Source of the DNA: an uncultured virus (IMG/VR IMGVR_UViG_3300040806_001404) | Lineage: Duplodnaviria > Heunggongvirae > Uroviricota > Caudoviricetes | IMG/VR virus record: IMGVR_UViG_3300040806_001404 | Strand: one strand, 5' to 3' | DNA: 20,000 bases | Shown here: piece by piece, positions 5,739-19,846 of the stretch | Layout: every line of letters begins with the position of its first letter | How positions within the stretch are numbered: the first letter of the stretch is position 1 | Notes under the pieces: generated by a model | What the model saw: only the letters and a program-made list of their open reading frames with translations | Databases searched by the model: none | What the model was told of the DNA's origin: nothing | Position numbers and translations under genes: made by a program

Positions 5739-6188
5739 TTATCTTAACCTTCTAAGTGGTATTTCAACGACTTGTTCTACGTTGATTCCTTTTATATTAA
5801 AAAAAACTTCTATAAGATATTCATTCCTAGGTACGTTATCAGTTATATCAATGCTTGTTACTGATACTCTTGGTTCATACTTTTGTATAACATCTCTTAT
5901 ATTATTTCTTAATTCTATATTTGTTATTAACCCTGCAGGCTCAAAAAGTAATCCTCTTAAATTAGCTCCTAAATCATCTGCAAATGGTCTTTCATAAAAA
6001 TTAGTTATAAGTAAATTTTTTATTGCATTTTTAATAGCAGCATCGTCTTTTAAAGGTATAATATCCTTTCTTATAGGATGTATCTTTAAAGATAAATCTA
6101 AGTCACGATGAGGTTTCTTTTTAGATACAACTCGTGCTTGCTCTAAATCCCCTGATATTTGCTTGTCGCCTGTATATAATCCTGCCAT
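5739..6188 (-). CDS. gp25: Baseplate wedge subunit gp25
   Basis: 149 aa; DLDLSL..HP..KDI, AIKNAIKNLLITNFYERPF, LLFEP and IQKYEPRV match the gp25/GPW family; directly upstream of gp6. Confidence 0.93.
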   Translation of the reverse strand: MAGLYTGDKQISGDLEQARVVSKKKPHRDLDLSLKIHPIRKDIIPLKDDAAIKNAIKNLLITNFYERPFADDLGANLRGLLFEPAGLITNIELRNNIRDVIQKYEPRVSVTSIDITDNVPRNEYLIEVFFNIKGINVEQVVEIPLRRLR

Positions 6189-6193
6189 ATATC

Positions 6194-6201
6194 TATTTAT
6201 A
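6194..6201 (-). promoter_or_regulatory. T4-type late promoter TATAAATA 5 nt upstream of the gp25 ATG
   Basis: - strand reads GTATAAATAGATATATGGCA; perfect late consensus in the short intergenic gap. Confidence 0.85.
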
Positions 6202-6205
6202 CTCG

Positions 6206-7207
6206 TTAACTGCTTCCTTGCTCAACTGTTGTGTTAGGAAGTTGACTTTGTGTATTATTAATTAATGTTTGTACTGATTCTGGTAAATCTATTGTTGATG
6301 GAAAGCCTATTACCTTTAAGTAATCACAGAAACTAAATGTAATTAAATCAATTATGGCACCTAATCCTATGGCATTAAAAAAATCTTCAACCTTTTGAAT
6401 CCATAGTTTTATAAGATATGTCTGCCATTCTTCTGTAAACTCTCTTGCTCTTTTTAATAATCTTTCTTTTTGAAACTCTGGTATTTCTACCTTATCATCA
6501 AACTCTCCGCCTAATAAATCTAATAAACTAAATCCAAATATTTGTACCTGTTCTAATTCTTCTATTGTTTTATCTCGTATTAAAGCTTCTAAATCTATTT
6601 CTTGTAAACCTGGAAACGATGGTAATCCTAATGCGTCCCATATTTCATCAAATAAATCTATAAGACCAGAAAATCCACCAGTTAATAAGAGATTCATTTT
6701 CTTTGCAACTTCAGAACGTATATAATTTGCTACAGTTTCTTTTTTAAAATCAGCTGTTTCAAACTTATCCCATATTTTATATTCATCTGGTATTAAATCA
6801 TATATACTATCAATCTCTTCTAGTTTTATATTATCTAAAACACTACTTGGGTCAGTTAAAAAATCAATTATATTAATTTGTATGCCTAATATAGTTACGT
6901 TAAATTCAATAGGAAACAAAGTATTTATTAATTCAAGTATTTGTTTTTGTACATACATTGGAAAATCAGCTGATAACTTCGTTATCATTAATTCCCATTC
7001 TATTTCTGGTATTTCTATCTTTTCAAACTTAGGGTCGACAGAACTTATTAACTTTCTTGTATCTTCAAGAGTTTTTTTTAATTCATCAATCTCATAACGA
7101 TAAGCATGTGTAGCCAATCCACTAAATAAGTTTCTTAAATTAGCTGGAGTAGGTAATAAAACATCAGGACATTCTATTTGTGGCAATGATATACTTGGAG
7201 TTGTCAT
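6206..7207 (-). CDS. Hypothetical acidic protein in the baseplate operon (between gp5 and gp25)
   Basis: 333 aa ORF whose start overlaps the gp5 stop (TAATG at 7207); D/E- and I/L-rich; no family recognised. Confidence 0.8.
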   Translation of the reverse strand: MTTPSISLPQIECPDVLLPTPANLRNLFSGLATHAYRYEIDELKKTLEDTRKLISSVDPKFEKIEIPEIEWELMITKLSADFPMYVQKQILELINTLFPIEFNVTILGIQINIIDFLTDPSSVLDNIKLEEIDSIYDLIPDEYKIWDKFETADFKKETVANYIRSEVAKKMNLLLTGGFSGLIDLFDEIWDALGLPSFPGLQEIDLEALIRDKTIEELEQVQIFGFSLLDLLGGEFDDKVEIPEFQKERLLKRAREFTEEWQTYLIKLWIQKVEDFFNAIGLGAIIDLITFSFCDYLKVIGFPSTIDLPESVQTLINNTQSQLPNTTVEQGSS

Positions 7208-10824: not shown

Positions 10825-11264
10825 TGAGTTATAGCGGTAGATACACAATAAAACGTCCAGAAAAATATGCTGGTGATGCAAGAAAGGTTGTATATCGATC
10901 TTTGTGGGAAAGACAAGCATTTAAATGGTGTGAAAACAATCCAAAAGTAAAGATGTGGAATTCAGAAGAGGTAGTTGTACCTTATAAATGTACAGTAGAT
11001 AAAAAACTGCATAGGTATTTCGTCGATCTTTTGATACAGATGGAAGACAAAAAGACTTATTTAATAGAAATTAAACCAAAAAATCAAACCATTCCACCTA
11101 AAAAACGTAGTCGTAAGACTAAAAAATATATTAATGAGATGATTACATATAGTAAGAATCAAGATAAATGGGAAGCAGCTGCTCAATTTGCTGAATACAA
11201 AGGTTGGAAGTTTCAAGTATGGACAGAAGAAACTTTAAAAAATCTAGGCATAAAGATACTCTAA
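10824..11264 (+). CDS. gp4: Head completion protein gp4 (TnsA-like PD-(D/E)xK nuclease fold)
   Basis: 146 aa; YSGRY....PEKYAGD, VYRSLWER, WNSEE.VVPY, HRYFVD, LIEIKP, NQDKWEAA and FQVWTE match gp4. Confidence 0.95.
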   Translation: MSYSGRYTIKRPEKYAGDARKVVYRSLWERQAFKWCENNPKVKMWNSEEVVVPYKCTVDKKLHRYFVDLLIQMEDKKTYLIEIKPKNQTIPPKKRSRKTKKYINEMITYSKNQDKWEAAAQFAEYKGWKFQVWTEETLKNLGIKIL

Positions 11265-11269
11265 ATCTG

Positions 11270-11277
11270 TATAAATA
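11270..11277 (+). promoter_or_regulatory. T4-type late promoter TATAAATA 5 nt upstream of the gp2 ATG
   Basis: GTATAAATAGATATATGGCA; same cassette as upstream of gp25. Confidence 0.85.
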
Positions 11278-11282
11278 GATAT

Positions 11283-11930
11283 ATGGCAAGTTTATTCGAT
11301 ACCTTACAAGCAAATGCATTTAGAGCTGGAGTACAAGCTCGTACTAAACAATCGCGTGATTGGTTTAAAAAAGAAGTGCGAGGGTTATCTGTATCAAGAC
11401 AAAAAGTTTTAGGAGATTCAGCTTTAGATAGAACTACTACTAATTTGCGTGGAAGCATGTATATGTATTTTTATGACCCTAAGCATAAAGAAACATTACC
11501 ATACTATGATAGGTTTCCATTGACAATAATGGTAGATGCTGCACCTGGCGGATTCTATGGATTAAATCTACATTATTTAAATTATAATACTCGAGCTAGG
11601 TTTTTAGATGACCTAATGGCATTTGGACCAGCTAAATCTACTGAAAGTTCTCGTCTTACACAATTAAGATATAATTTAATATCGGGCGTAAGAAAATTTA
11701 AAGAATTTAGACCATGCTTTAAACACTATTTAGGAACTAACGTGCGTTCACAGTTTTCAAGAGTCCCAATGACAGATTGGGAGATAGCTATATTCTTACC
11801 AGTAGAACAATTTCAGAAAAAAGGTAAAACTGCTATATGGAACGAAAGTGCTAAAATTGCAAGAAGTACTGGAGGTATAAGTATCAAAAATACTAAAGCT
11901 TATTATATGAGAAATAGGAAGAAAAAATGA
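11283..11930 (+). CDS. gp2: DNA end protector protein gp2
   Basis: 215 aa; MYMYFYDPKHKETLPYYDRFPL, GFYGLNLHYL, RPCFKHYL and WEIAIFLPVEQF match gp2. Confidence 0.95.
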   Translation: MASLFDTLQANAFRAGVQARTKQSRDWFKKEVRGLSVSRQKVLGDSALDRTTTNLRGSMYMYFYDPKHKETLPYYDRFPLTIMVDAAPGGFYGLNLHYLNYNTRARFLDDLMAFGPAKSTESSRLTQLRYNLISGVRKFKEFRPCFKHYLGTNVRSQFSRVPMTDWEIAIFLPVEQFQKKGKTAIWNESAKIARSTGGISIKNTKAYYMRNRKKK

Positions 11931-13866: not shown

Positions 13867-15717
13867 ATGGCATTAAAATCTGGACCTGGGTCCACTCCAT
13901 TTGATGATTTAGTCGATAGTGTAAAGAAAATGAATAGTGACCAAAATGCTATAGCAAAAGAAGCTGCAGTATATTCAAAAGAATTACAAGAACATTTAGA
14001 AAAAGATTCTATGAATATGAGTCAATCACAAATTGACGCAATGCAAGATTTAATAATGACTTTAAAAGAAGGTCGATTAGATGATTTAGAAAATGATAAA
14101 GAACAGCTTTTACGCGACCGTATGGAAGCAAGAAGAGATGATGAAAGAAATGATAGCTTATTAGATATATTTAAACAGTTAAAAATGCAGTTTAAACTAT
14201 TACAAGATGCCTTTAAAGGTAAAGATGGTATGAGTATAATAGGACTTATATTCAGAACAGCTTTAGTTGGATTTGTAATAGGTCTAGTCCAAGGGTTTAT
14301 AAAACCATATATGGTAGGAATTAAAGCAATCAGTGGAGCTGTATCAAATGTAGCTAGCAAAGCTTATAAATTTTTTGCATTTGATAAACTATTTAATGCA
14401 ATTAAACTTGGATTTACAAATTTTAGAGTTGGTTTTGTTGACCTTTTTAAAAATAGTCGATTAGCTAAATTTTTCCAAGGTGTCAGTAAAGACTCTCTTG
14501 GAGCAAGATTTTTCAATCAAGTTAAACTAGCATTTAAAGATTTTGGTACATTTGGTAAAAACATAATTAATTTTGTAAAAGCTCTTGGTTTTGCGTTTAT
14601 TGGTTTGTTTACAGGTGCGCCTACTGCATTTAAAAGATTAGCTGATGCAAAATTAGCATTCTCTCCTAAAGGATTTGTCTTTAGAGTCTTAGGAGGTCTT
14701 GTTAATTTTGTTAAAAAGCCATTTACATTAATAATCAATAAAGTAAGAGGAGCTTTTACAGGATTATCGTTTGCTTTAGCTGGTATTGCAGATAAAATTG
14801 GAGGACTATTTAGTCAAGGTGGTAAGACAACTATCTTTACAAAAGCCGCTAATAGGATAAAAGATTTATTTGCTAAACAAGGTCCATTGTCTAGATTCTT
14901 TGGTTTCTTTACTAAAATACAAGGAGTATTTAGAGGAATAGGACAAGTAGTTGGTAAACTACTATGGCCGCTTTTTGCGTTAATTGGATTTATAAAAGGT
15001 GCTACTACAGAAGCTAAAAAAGAAAAAGATACAGCTAACAAAATTATAGCTGGGTTTATTGGTGGTATAGGTGGAGTATTTAGAATTCTTATTGGAGAAT
15101 TCGCAGACTTCTTAAAACAAGCACTAGGATTCTTAATTGATTTAATACCTGGCGTTGATGGTGTAAGAGAAAAATTTGCACAATTCTCATTTGCTGATTT
15201 CTTTGATAAAATATTTGACGCGTATAAAAATGCAGTTCTTGGATTATTGAATACAATAAGAGATTCAATTGCAGATATCGGTGTTGGTGGCTTAATAAAA
15301 AATATTATGCTAAGCCTAATGTCTATCTTTATGAAAATAGCAGCATTTCCAAAGGCAATTGCAGCAGGTGCTTTATCAGCAATAGCAGCAGCTATGCCAG
15401 GTGGAGAAAGTCCGAAAGAAGCTTTTTCTCGTAAATTTAATGAAGTTATGTCTAAAGGACAAGCTGCGGCTGATGCCTTTGAAGCAATGAAAGAAAAAAG
15501 AGATGGTAGAGATTCAGATGGTAATATAATTAAAGCGTTATCTGATGAAGGCAAAATGCTAGCAATGGAAGCAAAAAGAGAAAAATATCCAGCTGGTCCA
15601 CCTACTCAACAGCTTTCATATCAAAATGTTACTGGCGGTGCTACAGTAATAGTTAATGGTGACGCTCCATCAGAAGCGGGTATGAAATTTAAATTCTTTA
15701 ATCAATATTCAGACTAA
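13867..15717 (+). CDS. Tape-measure-like protein (gp29 positional equivalent)
   Basis: 616 aa, AAGGA SD; helical/coiled-coil N-terminus followed by a long G/F/A/K-rich amphipathic region; located downstream of gp26/gp51; length similar to T4 gp29. Confidence 0.6.
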   Translation: MALKSGPGSTPFDDLVDSVKKMNSDQNAIAKEAAVYSKELQEHLEKDSMNMSQSQIDAMQDLIMTLKEGRLDDLENDKEQLLRDRMEARRDDERNDSLLDIFKQLKMQFKLLQDAFKGKDGMSIIGLIFRTALVGFVIGLVQGFIKPYMVGIKAISGAVSNVASKAYKFFAFDKLFNAIKLGFTNFRVGFVDLFKNSRLAKFFQGVSKDSLGARFFNQVKLAFKDFGTFGKNIINFVKALGFAFIGLFTGAPTAFKRLADAKLAFSPKGFVFRVLGGLVNFVKKPFTLIINKVRGAFTGLSFALAGIADKIGGLFSQGGKTTIFTKAANRIKDLFAKQGPLSRFFGFFTKIQGVFRGIGQVVGKLLWPLFALIGFIKGATTEAKKEKDTANKIIAGFIGGIGGVFRILIGEFADFLKQALGFLIDLIPGVDGVREKFAQFSFADFFDKIFDAYKNAVLGLLNTIRDSIADIGVGGLIKNIMLSLMSIFMKIAAFPKAIAAGALSAIAAAMPGGESPKEAFSRKFNEVMSKGQAAADAFEAMKEKRDGRDSDGNIIKALSDEGKMLAMEAKREKYPAGPPTQQLSYQNVTGGATVIVNGDAPSEAGMKFKFFNQYSD

Positions 15718-15743
15718 AAAAAAGGGGACCATTCAGTCCCCTT
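15716..15743 (-). terminator. Intrinsic terminator for gp32 (hairpin between convergent genes)
   Basis: Stem AAGGGGAC (15722-15729) / GTCCCCTT (15736-15743), 6-nt loop; the A8 run at 15716-15723 gives a U-tract on the - strand. Confidence 0.85.
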
Positions 15744-15759
15744 CGAAAATTAAATTTAA

Positions 15760-16674
15760 TTAACTTTCTTTAGCTAGTTTAGCAAAATAGCTGAGCGTAT
15801 CATCTTCATCAGACGAATCAACTGGAGTAGTACCCATTGCTTCCGCATTGGATGTACTCATTCCTTGAGTTGGCGCTGCAGTTTCATTCATTACTGGTGC
15901 TGCTACTGGAGCGTGTCCTGCATCAATACCTAGTACTTTATTCAACTTCATTGAAAGCTCATCGTAAGTTTTATAATTACTTGGCTCTAAGAAATCTTGT
16001 AAAGAATAAAGTTTGTCATAAACTTCGGTTAATCTAGACTCGTCGCCGTCATACAATGATGATGATGAACTAAATTCTGATTTATCGTAGTTTACCCAAC
16101 CTTCTACTTTTCTGATTTTGATTTTGAAGTCTGCGCCTTCCCAGAAATCGTAAGGATTTACTGGGTTTTCATCAGCGAACTGAGGTTGCATGACGTCCAT
16201 AATCTTATCAAAGATTTTCTTACCAAACTTATAAAGAAATACCTTTCCTTCATTTTCTGGATTTGACGGGTCAGAAACAATTAGTACATTACTTACGTAG
16301 TGTAGCCTTCTTTTTCTATCCCTAGCAGTTGCTTTATCTTCGTCTCTACCAGAGTTCCAAAGTACAGAGTTATGCTCCGATACTGGGTCCTGCTGTCCAA
16401 TGGACGTTAAAGAGTTTTCGATATACCATAAGCCAGTTGGTCCCTTGAATCCATGGTCCCAATATCTTACCCAAGGTAAGTCCTCACCATCTTTTGCTGG
16501 TAAGAATCTGACAACGGCATAACCGTTTCCTGCTTTATCTCTTGTAGGCTTCCAAAATCTATCATCCGCATAGGAATTAGTAGTTTCTGGTTTTGCTGAA
16601 GAGACTGCTTCTGCTGCTTTTACGAGTTTGTCGATTGACGAGCCTCGCATGCTCTTTAGATTTTCTAGTGACAT
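15760..16674 (-). CDS. gp32: Single-stranded DNA-binding protein gp32
   Basis: 304 aa; DDRFWKPTRDKAGNGYAVVRFLP, HGFKGPTGLWYIENSLTSIG, VFLYKFGKKIFDKI, PYDFWEGADFKIKI, NYDKSEF and acidic tail DEDDTLSYFAKLA. Confidence 0.97.
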   Translation of the reverse strand: MSLENLKSMRGSSIDKLVKAAEAVSSAKPETTNSYADDRFWKPTRDKAGNGYAVVRFLPAKDGEDLPWVRYWDHGFKGPTGLWYIENSLTSIGQQDPVSEHNSVLWNSGRDEDKATARDRKRRLHYVSNVLIVSDPSNPENEGKVFLYKFGKKIFDKIMDVMQPQFADENPVNPYDFWEGADFKIKIRKVEGWVNYDKSEFSSSSSLYDGDESRLTEVYDKLYSLQDFLEPSNYKTYDELSMKLNKVLGIDAGHAPVAAPVMNETAAPTQGMSTSNAEAMGTTPVDSSDEDDTLSYFAKLAKES

Positions 16675-16737: not shown

Positions 16738-16766
16738 ATTATACCACACTTCTATGGTTTTGTAAA
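16738..16766 (-). promoter_or_regulatory. sigma70/T4-early-type promoter upstream of gp32
   Basis: - strand TTTACA-N17-TATAAT with extended -10 (GTGTGG TATAAT); -35 at 16761-16766, -10 at 16738-16743. Confidence 0.75.
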
Positions 16767-17345
16767 GGTTTCTTTTAATAAATTTAAACATTTATTTCTA
16801 TCAAACTTTACAAATGGTTTGTATTTCATAATTTTTCTATAAATATCAGGCCATATAATAGTGTCCGTAATATTTTTATTTTCGCGTTCTACAAATCCAA
16901 TTATTGAATCCAAGATAACTACTGTTTCCAATAGTATTTCTTCTTGCATCCAAAGCTTTATAATCAATGGATGATTATTATCTTCTGCTTCTAAAAGAGA
17001 ATCAAACGATACATCCATATCATTAAGTTTATTTATATCAGTTTGAAACTGATACGTTAAAGATTCCATAATTTTTTTATGGTCTCTATAATATCTTTCT
17101 CCACCTTCATTAAGCATATCACCGACATACTTAACGTCGTTTTTAAAGTTAGCTATATAAAAATCTTTTAATTCATTTTCATATGTCTTAGCTAGCTTTG
17201 CAAAGAAAAACTTATCTTTTCGTTTAAAGAATGACGTAGGTTTTACTGAAGTCTTAAAATGATATTTAATCGCATCATATCCATCTGTTTCGAAATGTAA
17301 TTTAAGTGCGTTATATAATTTATAAGATTCAAATGGGTCATTCAT
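16752..17345 (-). CDS. gp59: Helicase loader gp59
   Basis: 197 aa; YKLYNALKLHF...YDAIKY, FFKRKDKFFFAKLA, LETVVILD and KIMKYKPF; conserved 33-59-32 order. Confidence 0.92.
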   Translation of the reverse strand: MNDPFESYKLYNALKLHFETDGYDAIKYHFKTSVKPTSFFKRKDKFFFAKLAKTYENELKDFYIANFKNDVKYVGDMLNEGGERYYRDHKKIMESLTYQFQTDINKLNDMDVSFDSLLEAEDNNHPLIIKLWMQEEILLETVVILDSIIGFVERENKNITDTIIWPDIYRKIMKYKPFVKFDRNKCLNLLKETFTKP

Positions 17346-17593
17346 AGAGGTAGTTTATTACCTCTCTTTGATTTAATTAAATGTAAGCCTGAAGCTTCTT
17401 CTTCAATCTTTTGCTTTAAAGAATCTGTTAAGAGCTTCTTAAGATTTTTATAATCCATACCTCTTTGTTCTACGACATAAGATGCTGCATCGATATATGA
17501 CATACTATTATTTGCTACAAGATGCTCTACTGCTGCAGAGAATCTCTTCTTTGTCATAATCTTTTGCTCTATTGGATTATCTTTATCCGACAA
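17342..17593 (-). CDS. gp33: Late promoter transcription co-activator gp33
   Basis: MTKKRFSAAVEHLV, MSYIDA, LKQKIEEEA..LHL and KLPL match gp33. The likely start is TTG at 17593 (83 aa) or the ATG of MTKKRF, rather than the track start at 17632 inside ahpC. Confidence 0.88.
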   Translation of the reverse strand: MSDKDNPIEQKIMTKKRFSAAVEHLVANNSMSYIDAASYVVEQRGMDYKNLKKLLTDSLKQKIEEEASGLHLIKSKRGNKLPL

Positions 17594-18104
17594 ACTCTTC
17601 ACCTTCATTCCAAGCACAACCTGTAAGACCACCTGCTTGTAAAGCTTTCAATGTTCTTAATACTTCTTGTGCGTTTCTTCCTGTATCTAAAGCGTTAATA
17701 GATACATGTTGTATAACTCTATTCTTATCAAAGATAAATGTTGCTCTGTATGGAACACCTTCATCTTCATTAACAATACCTAGTTGATGTGATAGTCCTA
17801 ATCCACAGTCAGCTGCTAATGTATGATTAATAGTACCAATTAAATTATTATCTTGTTTCCAAGCTAATTTACAGAACTCATTATCTCCACTTATTCCAAT
17901 AACATTAGCATCATCGACTAAACAGTCAAACCCAGCTATTTCTGTTGGACATATAAAGGTAAAGTCCTTAGGATAGAAATAAACTACACTCCACTGTTTT
18001 TTCTGTGGCATATAACTTTCGTTTACTTCAACTCTCACAAATTCATTTTTTTCGTTAATTCCTTGCAGTGAGAATGCAGGAAACTTTTCTCCGACTGATA
18101 GCAT
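17583..18104 (-). CDS. ahpC: Peroxiredoxin (AhpC/Prx1, 2-Cys type), auxiliary metabolic gene
   Basis: 173 aa, AGGAGG SD; VYFYPKDFTFICPTEI (PxxxTxxC peroxidatic motif), RATFIFD, GRNAQEVLRTLKALQ and a candidate resolving Cys in TGCAW. Confidence 0.93.
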   Translation of the reverse strand: MLSVGEKFPAFSLQGINEKNEFVRVEVNESYMPQKKQWSVVYFYPKDFTFICPTEIAGFDCLVDDANVIGISGDNEFCKLAWKQDNNLIGTINHTLAADCGLGLSHQLGIVNEDEGVPYRATFIFDKNRVIQHVSINALDTGRNAQEVLRTLKALQAGGLTGCAWNEGEEFVG

Positions 18105-18113
18105 ATTATCCTC

Positions 18114-19235
18114 CTAAAATACTCTCATTAATATACAGTCAGCATTAACTCTGCCTGTTGGTTTATCTATTTTTGTTGTTAATGTATCCCAAATCTTTTC
18201 AATTTGTTTTTCTGTTTTATTTAAAATCATTGGTAGTATTTCATCTGGCTTTCTTAAAGTAGCTTGTCTAGACTCTTTAGTAAAGTTTTTTACTGAAGTG
18301 CCTGATACTTCGAAGCCACTTACTGAGTCTGTAAAGTATTCAATAAGTTTCTTGTTCTTTCTATTATAGACATACAGCTTGTGTTTGCCAGGTATCATTA
18401 CAGGATTAATCGAGGTTAACTTAACGTCGTTATCTTCTGTACAATACTTTAACTTACTAACCTGTTGGTCTGAAGCTTTAACTTTCTTAGCTCTTGGTAG
18501 TTTAGTAGCCTTAAACGAATCTTTTAATCTATCTAAATCAGCAAATATTTCTCTAAACTGCTTAAGTATTTTATTTTTTTCGCCTTTAGTCCAGTGAGAA
18601 TAAGCTTCGACACATTGGTCGCAAGTCTTTTCATATGCCTCATTGATGTTATTATATTCAGTATCTAATAATTCTCTGAATATCTTGATGGCATTACCTT
18701 TTAAGTTATGACCTTTAAATCTGTTATAAGCACTAAACTTTCTATTAAAGTCTCCTTCTAACCAACCTTCAACTATTTCTAAATCAAAATCAGCGTATAT
18801 AGTATCCATCACTTTTCTGCGAGTTCTTTCAGCAGGACTGATAACAACTACTACAGCTTTTTTAGCTTCTTCGACTTTCTTTTCTTTTAAGCCGATTTTA
18901 TATTGAACATTAATAAAATCTTTAATCTTATCTAATTGTTCATCTGAATAGACCCATCCTCTATAATGTAGTTTAATCAGTTTATTAACTGACATAAATT
19001 TATAGTCTTTAAGTCTTTTAAGTACTGCTACTTTCTTTTTATCGTATCCACAATAGTCCATTGCAAACTGATAAGTTGTAGGCATGTAATCCTTAGTCTT
19101 ATAAAAATAGTTATACCATGAAGCTCCTCTTGTCCACTCTCTATCGTTGAACTCTGATTCCTTAGTATAAATTGGTTCTGGTCCAAGATACTTATCATCT
19201 AGACTTGGTCCTCTTTTTCTTTTATTTGCTGCCAT
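18114..19235 (-). CDS. Hypothetical basic phage protein under an early-type promoter
   Basis: 373 aa, strong TAAGGAG SD at 19240-19246; Lys-rich; no function recognised. Confidence 0.85.
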   Translation of the reverse strand: MAANKRKRGPSLDDKYLGPEPIYTKESEFNDREWTRGASWYNYFYKTKDYMPTTYQFAMDYCGYDKKKVAVLKRLKDYKFMSVNKLIKLHYRGWVYSDEQLDKIKDFINVQYKIGLKEKKVEEAKKAVVVVISPAERTRRKVMDTIYADFDLEIVEGWLEGDFNRKFSAYNRFKGHNLKGNAIKIFRELLDTEYNNINEAYEKTCDQCVEAYSHWTKGEKNKILKQFREIFADLDRLKDSFKATKLPRAKKVKASDQQVSKLKYCTEDNDVKLTSINPVMIPGKHKLYVYNRKNKKLIEYFTDSVSGFEVSGTSVKNFTKESRQATLRKPDEILPMILNKTEKQIEKIWDTLTTKIDKPTGRVNADCILMRVF

Positions 19236-19261
19236 ATTTCTCCTTAATTGTTTATATGTAT

Positions 19262-19290
19262 ATTATAACACATTTTAAGTCGTTTGTAAA
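19262..19290 (-). promoter_or_regulatory. sigma70/T4-early-type promoter
   Basis: - strand GTTTACA-N17-TATAAT with TGTGT extended -10; -35 at 19285-19290, -10 at 19262-19267; shares TTTACAAA...TGTG(G/T)TATAATATAC with the gp32 promoter. Confidence 0.8.
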
Positions 19291-19310
19291 CGATTTTTGT
19301 GAATAAAGGT

Positions 19311-19358
19311 GGCCGAGCCTCTGCGGGTGATAAGGAGTCGCATTGTTGAGACTCAGCC
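19311..19358 (-). ncRNA. Putative structured RNA element: extended hairpin with an anti-SD loop
   Basis: - strand GGCUGAGUCUC pairs with GAGGCUCGGCC (11 bp, 2 G-U); inner UGCG/CGCA stem; 13-nt loop ACUCCUUAUCACC; a GC-rich island in AT-rich DNA. Confidence 0.6.
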
Positions 19359-19367
19359 GTTGACATA

Positions 19368-19490
19368 TTAATCTTTCTCCCAAGGTAATGGGATTTGTTT
19401 TCCTTTTCTTTGTTCTTCAGCGACATGGCTTGACATGTATGCAAACACCATTGCTCCTATTGTAATTAATATAGTAAAAAATGTATTCAT
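19368..19490 (-). CDS. Small membrane peptide (40 aa)
   Basis: Not in the ORF track. MNTFFTILITIGAMVFAYMSSHVAEEQRKGKQIPLPWEKD*; GAGGAG SD, TAATG coupling to the upstream ORF; one N-terminal hydrophobic helix. Confidence 0.75.
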   Translation of the reverse strand: MNTFFTILITIGAMVFAYMSSHVAEEQRKGKQIPLPWEKD

Positions 19491-19846
19491 TAGTTTCTCC
19501 TCATATTAGCAATATCAGTTGCTTCTTCTTGAGAGATAACTGGTACAGCATTTGATTTATGCATAGTGGCAATACCTTTTACTAAGGTGCCAGTATACTT
19601 CATTGTTTCTTTTTTACTACAATCGCTAGCGATTTCATGGTAATTACCATTCTTCATATATTCTTCCATTAAGGAATTATATTGTACAGCTTGTCTTTCT
19701 CGTATCTTATTTAATTGAGATTCTCTTAAAGCTGCTGATTGAAAAGCCACTGGCTTCTTTTTAACTCTATTAGCTGCGTGGTTTTTTCTCTTCCTTCCAC
19801 AAGGTGAATACCTTAGTGAACCCATATAGAAGCTCGTAACAGCCAT
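19490..19846 (-). CDS. Hypothetical phage protein
   Basis: 118 aa, GGAGG SD, TAATG coupling at both ends; C-terminal YTGTLVKGIATMHKSNAVPV motif that I recall from uncharacterised T4-like phage proteins. Confidence 0.8.
   Translation of the reverse strand: MAVTSFYMGSLRYSPCGRKRKNHAANRVKKKPVAFQSAALRESQLNKIRERQAVQYNSLMEEYMKNGNYHEIASDCSKKETMKYTGTLVKGIATMHKSNAVPVISQEEATDIANMRRN

What the first reader, a model, noticed from the sequence alone, without database searches (positions are those of the whole stretch)
19240..19358. GC-rich RNA hairpin displaying an anti-Shine-Dalgarno loop complementary to neighbouring RBSs
Seen: a 48-nt GC-rich intergenic island folds on the - strand into an 11-bp stem (two G-U pairs that would be A-C mismatches on +, so the fold is strand-specific), a 5-nt AACAA bulge, a 4-bp stem and the loop ACUCCUUAUCACC. 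The loop contains CUCCUUA and AUCACC, both segments of the 16S rRNA 3' end (GAUCACCUCCUUA). CUCCUUA is a perfect 7-nt complement of the UAAGGAG SD of the downstream 373 aa gene (19240-19246). CUCCUUAU also pairs (8 bp, 1 G-U) with AUGAGGAG of the upstream 40 aa membrane peptide gene. An early-type promoter (19262-19290) sits between the hairpin and the downstream gene. Established: T4 silences RBSs on read-through transcripts with RNA structure (genes e, soc, I-TevI), and type I toxin mRNAs use fold-back anti-SD elements. Inference: this is a cis switch (read-through mRNA silenced, promoter-proximal mRNA translated), a fold-back inhibitor of the membrane peptide, or a 3'-UTR-derived trans-acting sRNA that binds SD sequences.
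Basis: partly seen in the sequence, partly recalled or inferred. Interest (0 to 1): 0.75.

Follow-up and report, generated by a model that had tools for sequence, protein, structure and literature searches.

The report
Phage hairpin mirroring early ribosome sites
An uncultured marine T4-like phage ends its block of early genes with a conserved RNA hairpin whose open loop is the mirror image of the ribosome-binding leaders of its own early genes, so it probably holds down their translation, though no experiment has tested this.

Summary
On the - strand, 19358-19311 folds exactly as described (-22.8 kcal/mol, z -3.4; + strand z -0.8).

The hairpin is a real, single-copy, syntenic RNA element:
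- 75 of 80 related viral loci carry it in front of the same 373-aa gene.
- The loop core is invariant.
- The 11-bp stem is 100% paired in 28 distinct versions, with two-sided changes at 10 of 11 pairs and many G-U pairs.
- No Rfam family matches.

In every related record with upstream sequence, the strongest complements of the loop are the roughly 30-nt leaders of one or two early-promoter genes 1.3-4.4 kb upstream. These form 10-14 bp at -14 to -22 kcal/mol, against about -10 for the adjacent gene. Clades with different loops carry correspondingly different leaders.

Best reading (0.55): an anti-leader, anti-SD hairpin at the end of the early block. It pairs with early mRNA leaders, within the read-through transcript or in trans, and limits their translation. 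It may also attenuate transcription.

No transcript ends, pairing or effect have been shown. This scan has noted the same kind of element on other phage DNA, and my literature searches found no description. Closest known: icaR 5'-3' UTR pairing, cuckoo sRNA loops and PeSL cassettes.

The parts
19311..19358 (-). Whole RNA hairpin (GC clamp stem, bulge, inner stem, loop)
   Evidence: MFE -22.8 kcal/mol, z -3.39. R1 match at 19302-19367, 80.9 bits. Homologous hairpins in 75 of 80 loci.
19348..19358 (-). 5' arm of the 11-bp clamp stem
   Evidence: Pairs with 19311-19321. In 28 distinct versions it is 100% paired, and 10 of 11 pairs change on both sides.
19311..19321 (-). 3' arm of the 11-bp clamp stem
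   Evidence: 46 of 308 stem cells are G-U or U-G, which would be A-C mismatches on the other strand.
19343..19347 (-). 5-nt bulge on the 5' side (AACAA here, mostly AUCAA or AUUAA in relatives)
   Evidence: Two of its A positions are invariant in A2.
19326..19338 (-). 13-nt loop. With the weak inner stem (19339-19342 with 19322-19325) opened, the loop is 26 nt
   Evidence: The inner stem is 78% paired in relatives, with a U-A to C-G change at its first pair.
19328..19338 (-). Invariant loop core ACUCCUUAUCA, the antisense of the early-leader box
   Evidence: Invariant in the 28 versions of A2. It is an 11-12 bp complement of the leader at G007 3553 and a 10-11 bp complement of the one at G007 2286. 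G007 matches the window with 2 mismatches in 3342 bases.
19302..19310 (-). Short U-rich tail after the stem (a weak terminator feature)
   Evidence: 5 T in 9 nt here. At least 5 of 9 in only 20 of 38 distinct versions. The site is not listed among the 17 terminator-like sites.
19262..19290 (-). Early-type sigma-70 promoter (TTTACA, 17 nt, TG-extended TATAAT) of the 373-aa gene
   Evidence: 11 of 12 matches. The same cassette type recurs upstream of the hairpin in related records. It is present between hairpin and gene in 30 of 38 versions.
19240..19246 (-). SD UAAGGAG of the 373-aa gene, a secondary and weaker partner of the loop
   Evidence: 7-nt complement, -9.4 kcal/mol. Joint-longest 7-nt match among 22 start regions of the window, and the only one covering the full GGAG (the other is ATAAGGA before 13867-15717)..
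18114..19235 (-). 373-aa gene (phrog_11903, function unknown) that always follows the hairpin
   Evidence: 28 of 28 hairpins found by a motif scan are followed by this gene family. No fold match.
19368..19490 (-). 40-aa membrane-peptide gene. Its stop codon lies 9 nt before the hairpin
   Evidence: It sits in this position in only part of the loci.
19497..19504 (-). SD region AUGAGGAG of the 40-aa gene, an 8-bp partner (one G-U) of the loop
   Evidence: Duplex -10.3 kcal/mol.

Best explanation
The element is a conserved RNA hairpin transcribed from the gene-sense (- strand) DNA at the end of the early-gene block of an uncultured marine T4-like phage. It sits directly before the conserved 373-aa gene and the gp33/gp59/gp32 module.

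A GC-rich clamp stem, kept by compensatory changes, holds open a large loop. The invariant core of that loop is the antisense of the extended ribosome-binding leader (UGAUAAGGAGU type) carried by the phage's 'leadered' early genes. Two such leaders lie about 2.4 and 3.6 kb upstream in the near-identical record G007. The SDs of the two neighbouring genes in the window are weaker partners.

I infer that the loop base-pairs with these leaders. This could happen within one read-through early transcript (5'-3' pairing as in icaR mRNA) or between molecules. The pairing would cover the SD and so limit or switch off translation of those early genes once transcription has reached the hairpin. Attenuating transcription, or protecting the 3' end of early RNA, is a likely second job in the versions that have a U tract.

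Shown: the fold, its conservation, stem covariation, strand specificity, single copy, synteny, and the loop-leader complementarity with its clade-specific matching. Inferred: that the RNA is made and ends here, that the pairing occurs, and that it represses rather than protects.
For: Structure:
- strand-specific fold.
- present in 75 of 80 loci, in 38 distinct versions. In 28 aligned versions the stem is 100% paired, 10 of 11 pairs change on both sides, 0 of 500 shuffles reach the covariation score, and slid controls are 31-41% paired.
- The loop core is invariant.

Copy number and synteny:
- One R1 hit in the window.
- One R1 hit in each of 5 records of 47-128 kb.
- 28 of 28 motif-found hairpins precede the same gene family.

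Targets:
- In G001, G002, G003, G004 and G005 the two best loop complements are early-promoter leaders upstream of the hairpin, at -12.3 to -17.6 kcal/mol. This is among 55, 54, 55 and 55 ORF start regions in G002-G005, and among the 12 ORFs of G001's upstream stretch L002.
- G008 ranks them 1 and 3 of 16; G009 ranks them 1 and 2 of 17.
- G007, near-identical to the window, has 11-12 and 10-11 bp matches.
- G010 reaches -21.8 and G011 -17.4.

Matching by clade:
- Own loop against own leaders averages -17.1 kcal/mol, against -14.1 across genomes.
- Only 68 of 40,320 permutations do as well.
- Clades with loops ending UUUUUA, UAUUUUAC or UUUUCAUCAA have leaders with the complementary boxes.

Other points:
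- Leaderless early genes have no complement.
- No sense-strand terminator-like site lies between the target promoters and the hairpin in G002.
- The clade without a complementary SD on the adjacent gene still keeps loop and upstream targets.
Against: - No transcript mapping. The RNA runs are assembled contigs only. One 633-nt RNA-library contig stops inside the 3' arm at 19319, while another bridges the hairpin. Neither is decisive.
- Part of the complementarity is what any anti-SD string shares with any strong SD.
- The covariation signal rests mainly on three clades (G008, G009, G010).
- The loops of G003 and G011 pair even better with leaders of other genomes than with their own. The genomes are related, so the permutation count is not a true probability.
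- The ORF-based ranking missed the best leaders in G010-G012, because an upstream ATG was taken as the start. They were found by looking behind promoters.
- An 11-12 bp helix in a 13-nt loop needs the 3-4 bp inner stem to open.
- The target genes are not the same genes in all genomes. What is conserved is a leader cassette, which could also be spread by recombination.
- The direction of the effect (repression, or protection from nucleases) is unknown.
Confidence: 0.55

Rival explanations
1. Local cis switch only. On read-through RNA the loop pairs with the SD of the 373-aa gene 65 nt downstream and silences it. RNA started at the promoter between them lacks the hairpin and is translated. This follows the logic of T4 genes e, soc and I-TevI.
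For: Loop-to-SD duplex has a median of -10.2 kcal/mol in 37 loci, against -6.0 for 167 other start regions, of which 3% reach it. It is the joint-longest match among 22 start regions of the window and the only one covering GGAG. A promoter lies between in 30 of 38 versions. The hairpin is strictly linked to this gene. Where the SD has changed (L063, L073, L018), 7-8 bp are kept in a shifted register. T4 precedent: passages of PMC3014915.
Against: 8 of 38 versions have no promoter between. L067, L069 and L070 have no complementary SD (-2 kcal/mol) but keep the loop core. The conserved UAUCA part of the loop has no partner in this SD but does in the upstream leaders, which pair 5-8 kcal/mol better.
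Confidence: 0.15
2. A transcription attenuator or 3'-end stabiliser of the early block, i.e. the stem-loop half of a PeSL-type cassette. The loop would be conserved because a protein binds it, for example a phage translational regulator or the 373-aa product. The complementarity to leaders would be incidental.
For: The layout (stop codon, stem-loop, AT-rich stretch, early promoter, SD, ATG) matches the PeSL description (passages of PMC2839356). A U tract follows in 20 of 38 versions. An RNA-library contig ends in the 3' arm. A 209-nt cassette is identical between the window and G001 while the gene behind it is only 51% identical. RegA homologues are found in 3 of 5 related records.
Against: 18 of 38 versions lack a U tract. 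The phage's canonical terminator after gp32 has a 4-nt loop and a T run, unlike this 13-26 nt loop. A protein site would not be expected to track clade-specific changes in distant leaders. The hairpin is single copy, whereas phi1 and RB49 have 51-52 PeSLs each.
Confidence: 0.13
3. A generic 16S 3'-tail mimic that soaks up SD sequences in general, host or phage. This could fit with the phage-encoded ribosomal protein bS21 and with the many leaderless phage genes.
For: The loop contains the anti-SD core. bS21 is found in 3 of 5 related records. Several early genes start 6-9 nt after the -10 box, and late-type TATAAATA boxes sit just before some ATGs.
Against: The core reads ACUCC, not CCUCC. The loop flanks differ by clade and match the phage's own leaders. 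A stoichiometric sponge for all SDs would need very high abundance. Most start regions pair weakly, with a median of -6.0 to -6.5 kcal/mol.
Confidence: 0.05
4. Fold-back inhibitor of the upstream 40-aa membrane-peptide gene (type I toxin style).
For: 8 bp (one G-U), -10.3 kcal/mol, with the peptide gene's SD region at 19504-19497.
Against: That peptide gene lies upstream in only a minority of the 75 loci. Others have unrelated genes there, while the hairpin and loop are unchanged.
Confidence: 0.02

Closest known systems
icaR mRNA of Staphylococcus aureus: a 3'-UTR anti-SD motif pairing with the SD in its own 5'-UTR (PMC3868564; abstract read)
   Same: A pyrimidine-rich anti-SD motif lies downstream of coding sequence on the same strand. 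It is complementary to the SD region at the 5' end and is proposed to block initiation.
   Different: In this phage the motif sits in the loop of a covarying clamp hairpin, 1.3-4.4 kb and several cistrons downstream. It matches the leaders of more than one early gene, in a lytic phage. Neither the pairing nor RNase III cleavage has been shown.
Cuckoo (alpha-r14 / CcsR) small RNAs of Alphaproteobacteria: hairpins with variable stems that all show a CCUCCUCCC loop (PMC4615179; abstract read)
   Same: A conserved anti-SD-like loop sits on stems that vary freely in sequence.
   Different: Cuckoo RNAs are free-standing genes with 2-4 hairpins. This element is one hairpin, 0-11 nt behind a stop codon, with no promoter of its own found, a different loop, and no Rfam match.
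PeSL (promoter-early stem-loop) cassettes of T4-type phages (PMC2839356, passages; PMC4122927, abstract and passages)
   Same: The same intergenic layout, with a strong sigma-70-type early promoter. There are signs of cassette exchange: 209 nt are identical between the window and G001, with diverged flanks.
   Different: PeSL stem-loops are many per genome and vary in place. They are described as terminators or attenuators and recombination sites, with no conserved loop function. This hairpin is single copy, deeply conserved, and its loop mirrors the early leaders.
T4 control of early mRNAs at their start regions: RegB cleavage in GGAG/U of early SDs, and RBS occlusion on read-through transcripts of e and I-TevI (PMC3014915, passages)
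   Same: The target is the SD region of early messages, and the presumed purpose is to time or limit early protein synthesis.
   Different: T4 uses a protein nuclease or local hairpins. This element would be a distant antisense loop. RegB was not found in 5 related records, but that search rang in no control genome either, so it says nothing either way.

Membership tests
PeSL cassette (T4-type phages) | Strong sigma-70-like early promoter with an AT-rich upstream stretch, between the upstream stop codon and the downstream SD/ATG | tested here: met
   (11 of 12 matches, TG-extended). The same cassette type is seen.
PeSL cassette (T4-type phages) | A stable stem-loop within the cassette | tested here: met
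PeSL cassette (T4-type phages) | The repeated motif occurs many times per genome (51-52 in phi1 and RB49) | tested here: not met
   The hairpin is single copy in the window and in 5 records of 47-128 kb. Only the promoter and leader part recurs.
PeSL cassette (T4-type phages) | The stem-loop terminates or attenuates transcription | not testable with these tools
   A U tract follows in 20 of 38 versions. One RNA-library contig ends in the 3' arm and another bridges it.
icaR-type 5'-3' UTR pairing | An anti-SD motif complementary to the SD region of an mRNA made from the same strand upstream | tested here: met
   10-14 bp, -14 to -22 kcal/mol, in 11 records.
icaR-type 5'-3' UTR pairing | Both partners lie on one transcript | tested here: inconclusive
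   No sense-strand terminator-like site lies between them in G002. No transcript ends have been mapped.
icaR-type 5'-3' UTR pairing | The pairing blocks initiation and/or creates an RNase III substrate | not testable with these tools
   Needs toeprinting, reporters or cleavage assays.
T4-type RBS occlusion on read-through transcripts | The sequestering sequence lies upstream of the promoter that makes the translatable mRNA | tested here: inconclusive
   True in 30 of 38 versions and false in 8 of 38.
T4-type RBS occlusion on read-through transcripts | The RBS of the regulated gene is paired by that sequence | tested here: inconclusive
   7-9 bp in most loci, none in L067, L069 and L070. It would be loop-to-strand pairing over 50-75 nt, not a local hairpin.
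Cuckoo / CcsR-type sRNA | A free-standing gene with 2-4 hairpins that each show the CCUCCUCCC loop | tested here: not met
   One hairpin with a different loop, directly behind a stop codon. No Rfam hit.
Intrinsic terminator | GC stem with a short loop, followed at once by a U run | tested here: inconclusive
   The loop is 13-26 nt. The site is not listed by the terminator scan. A U tract follows in 20 of 38 versions.

The most novel reading that the evidence does not exclude
The hairpin is a built-in timer and shut-off RNA for early genes, an RNA counterpart of T4's RegB/RegA. The RBS of each leadered early message stays open only until RNA polymerase has transcribed the 1.3-4.4 kb to the end of the early block. 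The loop then closes the message's own 5' leader (5'-3' pairing). Stable hairpin fragments made from all upstream early promoters then silence remaining leadered early mRNAs in trans. Leaderless early genes and late genes escape. Since this scan has noted comparable loop-leader pairs in unrelated phage groups, this could be a widespread and undescribed way for lytic phages to schedule early protein synthesis.
Probability: 0.3. Interest if true: 0.88.

Novelty: new variant of a known kind. Interest (0 to 1): 0.78.

Why it matters
How lytic phages end early protein synthesis is known mainly from T4 proteins (RegB, RegA).

A conserved antisense hairpin aimed at the phage's own early leaders would be an RNA-based solution in abundant, uncultured marine myoviruses. 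It would add a regulatory RNA class to phages, where few are known.

It would also explain why a subset of early genes keeps an unusually long, fixed ribosome-binding box.

The element is small and its predicted partner is defined. The claim can therefore be tested directly with synthetic RNAs and reporter fusions, without culturing the phage.

Tried and rejected
- Rfam. No family at gathering score in the window or in 7 related loci. Only three chance-level eukaryotic matches in E-value mode.
- blastn of the region against deposited phages found no match.
- The 373-aa gene. No Pfam family, and only a PHROG of unknown function. The AlphaFold model has pLDDT 77.7. Foldseek against the PDB gave no match at E<=0.001. 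The wide VIA search gave a best Z of 7.6, on a helical stretch only. Its function stays unknown, so it gave no clue to the hairpin.
- Distant homologues in phiM12 and Cr30 have no such hairpin.
- R1 found nothing in the complete genomes of HTVC008M, Melnitz-3 and C48C1. The model does ring in G002-G006.
- Dispersed repeat: rejected, since the hairpin is single copy.
- Antisense-strand function: rejected, because of the G-U pairs and the + strand fold.
- Peptide fold-back: rejected as a general function.
- RNA runs. Only assembled contigs were available. Stretches without cover, and the contig end at 19319, are not usable as evidence of transcript ends.
- RegB search: no hit, but no control rang either.
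- Motif-string search of papers: only primers and unrelated hits. A search on anti-SD, bacteriophage, hairpin loop and mimic listed nothing relevant. A search for IS10 fold-back inhibition listed nothing useful, so that parallel remains recalled knowledge.
- Look-ups of earlier findings by sequence and by place: nothing.

Full report
**Setting.**
The window is part of an AT-rich T4-like myovirus. On the - strand lie, in order:
- gp32 (15760-16674)
- gp59 (16752-17345)
- gp33 (17342-17632)
- an AhpC-type peroxiredoxin (17583-18104)
- a 373-aa gene of unknown function, phrog_11903 (18114-19235)

Upstream of these come small genes of 40, 118 and 43 aa. The gp32 protein is at most 55% identical to deposited phages; the nearest are C48C1, the Melnitz phages of Methylophilales, pelagiphage HTVC008M and cyanophages. 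blastn of the region finds nothing deposited. So this is an uncultured marine lineage whose host is unknown.

It has an 11-bp stem with two G-U pairs, a 5-nt bulge, a 4-bp inner stem and a 13-nt loop. Energy is -22.8 kcal/mol with 81% of the ensemble, z -3.39, and 1 of 200 shuffles folds as well. The + strand is no better than its shuffles (z -0.79).

GC peaks at 0.52 inside the element. The promoter at 19290-19262 is one of two 11-of-12 matches in the window. The stated complements to the two neighbouring SDs are present.

**It is a real, conserved RNA structure.**
The 373-aa protein recovered 80 related loci from viral contigs. A hairpin with the same loop core lies just upstream of the gene in 75 of them. 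The five exceptions are as follows:
- L035 and L038 have under 40 nt of upstream DNA.
- L046 and L059 lack the gene's 5' end.
- L062 (43% identity) has upstream DNA but no hairpin.

There are 38 distinct 66-nt versions. I aligned the 28 versions of the commonest architecture (A2), out of those 38. In that alignment:
- The 11-bp stem is 100% paired, and 10 of 11 pairs change on both sides.
- 58 cells show double changes, against 17.3 in shuffles.
- 0 of 500 shuffles reach the covariation score.
- Partners slid by 1-3 columns pair in only 31-41% of cells.
- 46 of 308 stem cells are G-U or U-G, so the structure belongs to the gene-sense RNA.
- The loop core is invariant.

The other ten versions, which I did not put into that alignment, have unrelated stems of 13-16 bp around the same core.

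No Rfam family matches.

**Single copy and syntenic.**
A covariance model (R1) finds one site in the window at 80.9 bits; the next best is 14.3. It finds one site in each of five related records of 47-128 kb. It finds none in the complete genomes of HTVC008M, Melnitz-3 and C48C1.

A scan of viral contigs for a 14-nt loop string returned 80 fetched loci. Of these, 28 have the hairpin, and all 28 are followed by the 373-aa gene family. The other 52 are chance occurrences without a hairpin.

The upstream gene, in contrast, varies.

**The adjacent-gene reading is only part of the story.**
In its favour:
- The loop-to-SD duplex with the 373-aa gene has a median of -10.2 kcal/mol in 37 loci. The median is -6.0 for 167 other start regions of the same loci, of which 3% do as well.
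- In the window it is the joint-longest match among 22 start regions and the only one covering GGAG.
- A promoter separates hairpin and SD in 30 of 38 versions.

Against it as the whole explanation:
- 8 of 38 versions have no promoter in between.
- In L067, L069 and L070 the gene has no complementary SD (-2 kcal/mol), yet the loop core persists.
- The conserved UAUCA half of the loop has no partner in this SD.

**The better partners lie upstream.**
Related records show two kinds of early-promoter cassette upstream of the hairpin:
- Leaderless ones, with the ATG 6-9 nt after the -10 box.
- Leadered ones, with 26-35 nt that carry a long, fixed ribosome-binding box.

The loop is the antisense of that box. 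Among all ORF start regions in up to 20 kb, the two best complements are such leaders in G001, G002, G003, G004 and G005, at -12.3 to -17.6 kcal/mol. In G008 they rank 1 and 3 of 16, and in G009 they rank 1 and 2 of 17.

In G010-G012 the ORF-based ranking missed them, because an upstream ATG was taken as the start. Looking directly behind the promoters gives -21.8 for G010 and -17.4 for G011.

Record G007 matches the last 3342 bases of the window with 2 mismatches, and it extends 5.3 kb further upstream. It has two such leaders about 2.4 and 3.6 kb before the hairpin, with 11-12 and 10-11 bp matches at -17.6 and -16.8 kcal/mol. These targets lie outside the window.

Leaderless cassettes have no complement.

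**Loop and leader differ together.**
Clades whose loop continues differently after the CUCCUU core have leaders with the matching box.

In a loop-by-leader matrix of eight genomes, own pairs average -17.1 kcal/mol and cross pairs -14.1. Of all 40,320 permutations, 68 do as well.

Caveats:
- The signal comes mostly from G008, G009 and G010.
- The loops of G003 and G011 pair even better with leaders of other genomes.
- The genomes are related.
- The leader is part of a modular cassette attached to different genes in different genomes.

**Mechanism.**
The hairpin closes the early block on the same strand. No sense-strand terminator-like site lies between the target promoters and the hairpin in G002. 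One read-through molecule could therefore carry both partners, as in icaR mRNA (abstract). Every upstream early promoter would also add to the pool of hairpin RNA.

Covering the SD should lower initiation. T4 reaches the same end with RegB cuts in GGAG/U of early start regions (passages).

Termination is not the conserved feature. Only 20 of 38 versions have at least 5 T in the 9 nt after the stem. The phage's canonical terminator after gp32 has a 4-nt loop and a T run.

A 209-nt stretch is identical between the window and G001 while the gene behind it is only 51% identical. This fits PeSL-like cassette exchange.

**What is missing.**
The RNA runs that hold the region are assembled contigs. 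One RNA-library contig ends at 19319 in the 3' arm, and one bridges the hairpin into a variant gene. Neither shows a transcript end. Pairing, its direction of effect, and cis versus trans action are all inferred.

**Relation to earlier notes and to print.**
After I had reached this reading, look-ups by words showed that this scan has noted the same kind of element on other phage DNA. Several of those notes concern marine T4-like phages. These are unchecked notes and not independent support. They gave me the icaR and cuckoo-RNA comparisons, whose abstracts I then read.

My paper searches listed no description of this element.

Noticed in passing
L233 1893, 5002 and 17522; L234, L235 and L236 equivalents; L243 1334 and 3445: Many early-promoter cassettes in the related records place the ATG 6-9 nt after the -10 box, so these early mRNAs should be leaderless or nearly so. 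A small membrane ORF of this kind is inserted between promoter and 373-aa gene in L007, L013, L020, L022, L037 and L054.
   Followed up: partly
window 6188-6210 (-) and 11260-11283 (+): A T4 late-promoter-like TATAAATA box sits only about 5 nt before the ATG of the genes at 5739-6188 (-) and 11283-11930 (+). These late mRNAs would also have almost no leader and no SD.
   Followed up: no
G002 44374-44523, G003 69862-70002, G004 51031-51177: The three largest related records encode a ribosomal protein bS21 homologue and a RegA-type translational repressor. No RegB was detected, but that search rang in no control.
   Followed up: partly
window 19230-19440 compared with G001 (L001 about 1560-1770): About 209 nt are identical between the two phages: the end of the 40-aa gene, the hairpin, the promoter and the SD. 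The 373-aa gene behind them is only 51% identical, and the start of the peptide gene also differs. This suggests cassette exchange by recombination.
   Followed up: partly
L017, L028, L033, L036, L037, L040 and L047: spacer between -35 and -10 of the promoter just after the hairpin: In these versions the promoter spacer itself holds a copy of the leader box (UUGAUAAGGAA type). It pairs with the loop at about -12 kcal/mol, more strongly than the SD of the adjacent gene. Its meaning is unknown.
   Followed up: no
window 15721-15744 (-): There is a canonical intrinsic terminator after gp32: 10 bp, a 4-nt loop and a T run. It is a useful contrast to the large-loop hairpin studied here.
   Followed up: no
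window 17583-17632 (-): The listed gp33 ORF (GTG start at 17632) overlaps the end of the peroxiredoxin gene by 50 nt. The real gp33 start is probably a later ATG, since the Pfam match begins at residue 24.
   Followed up: no
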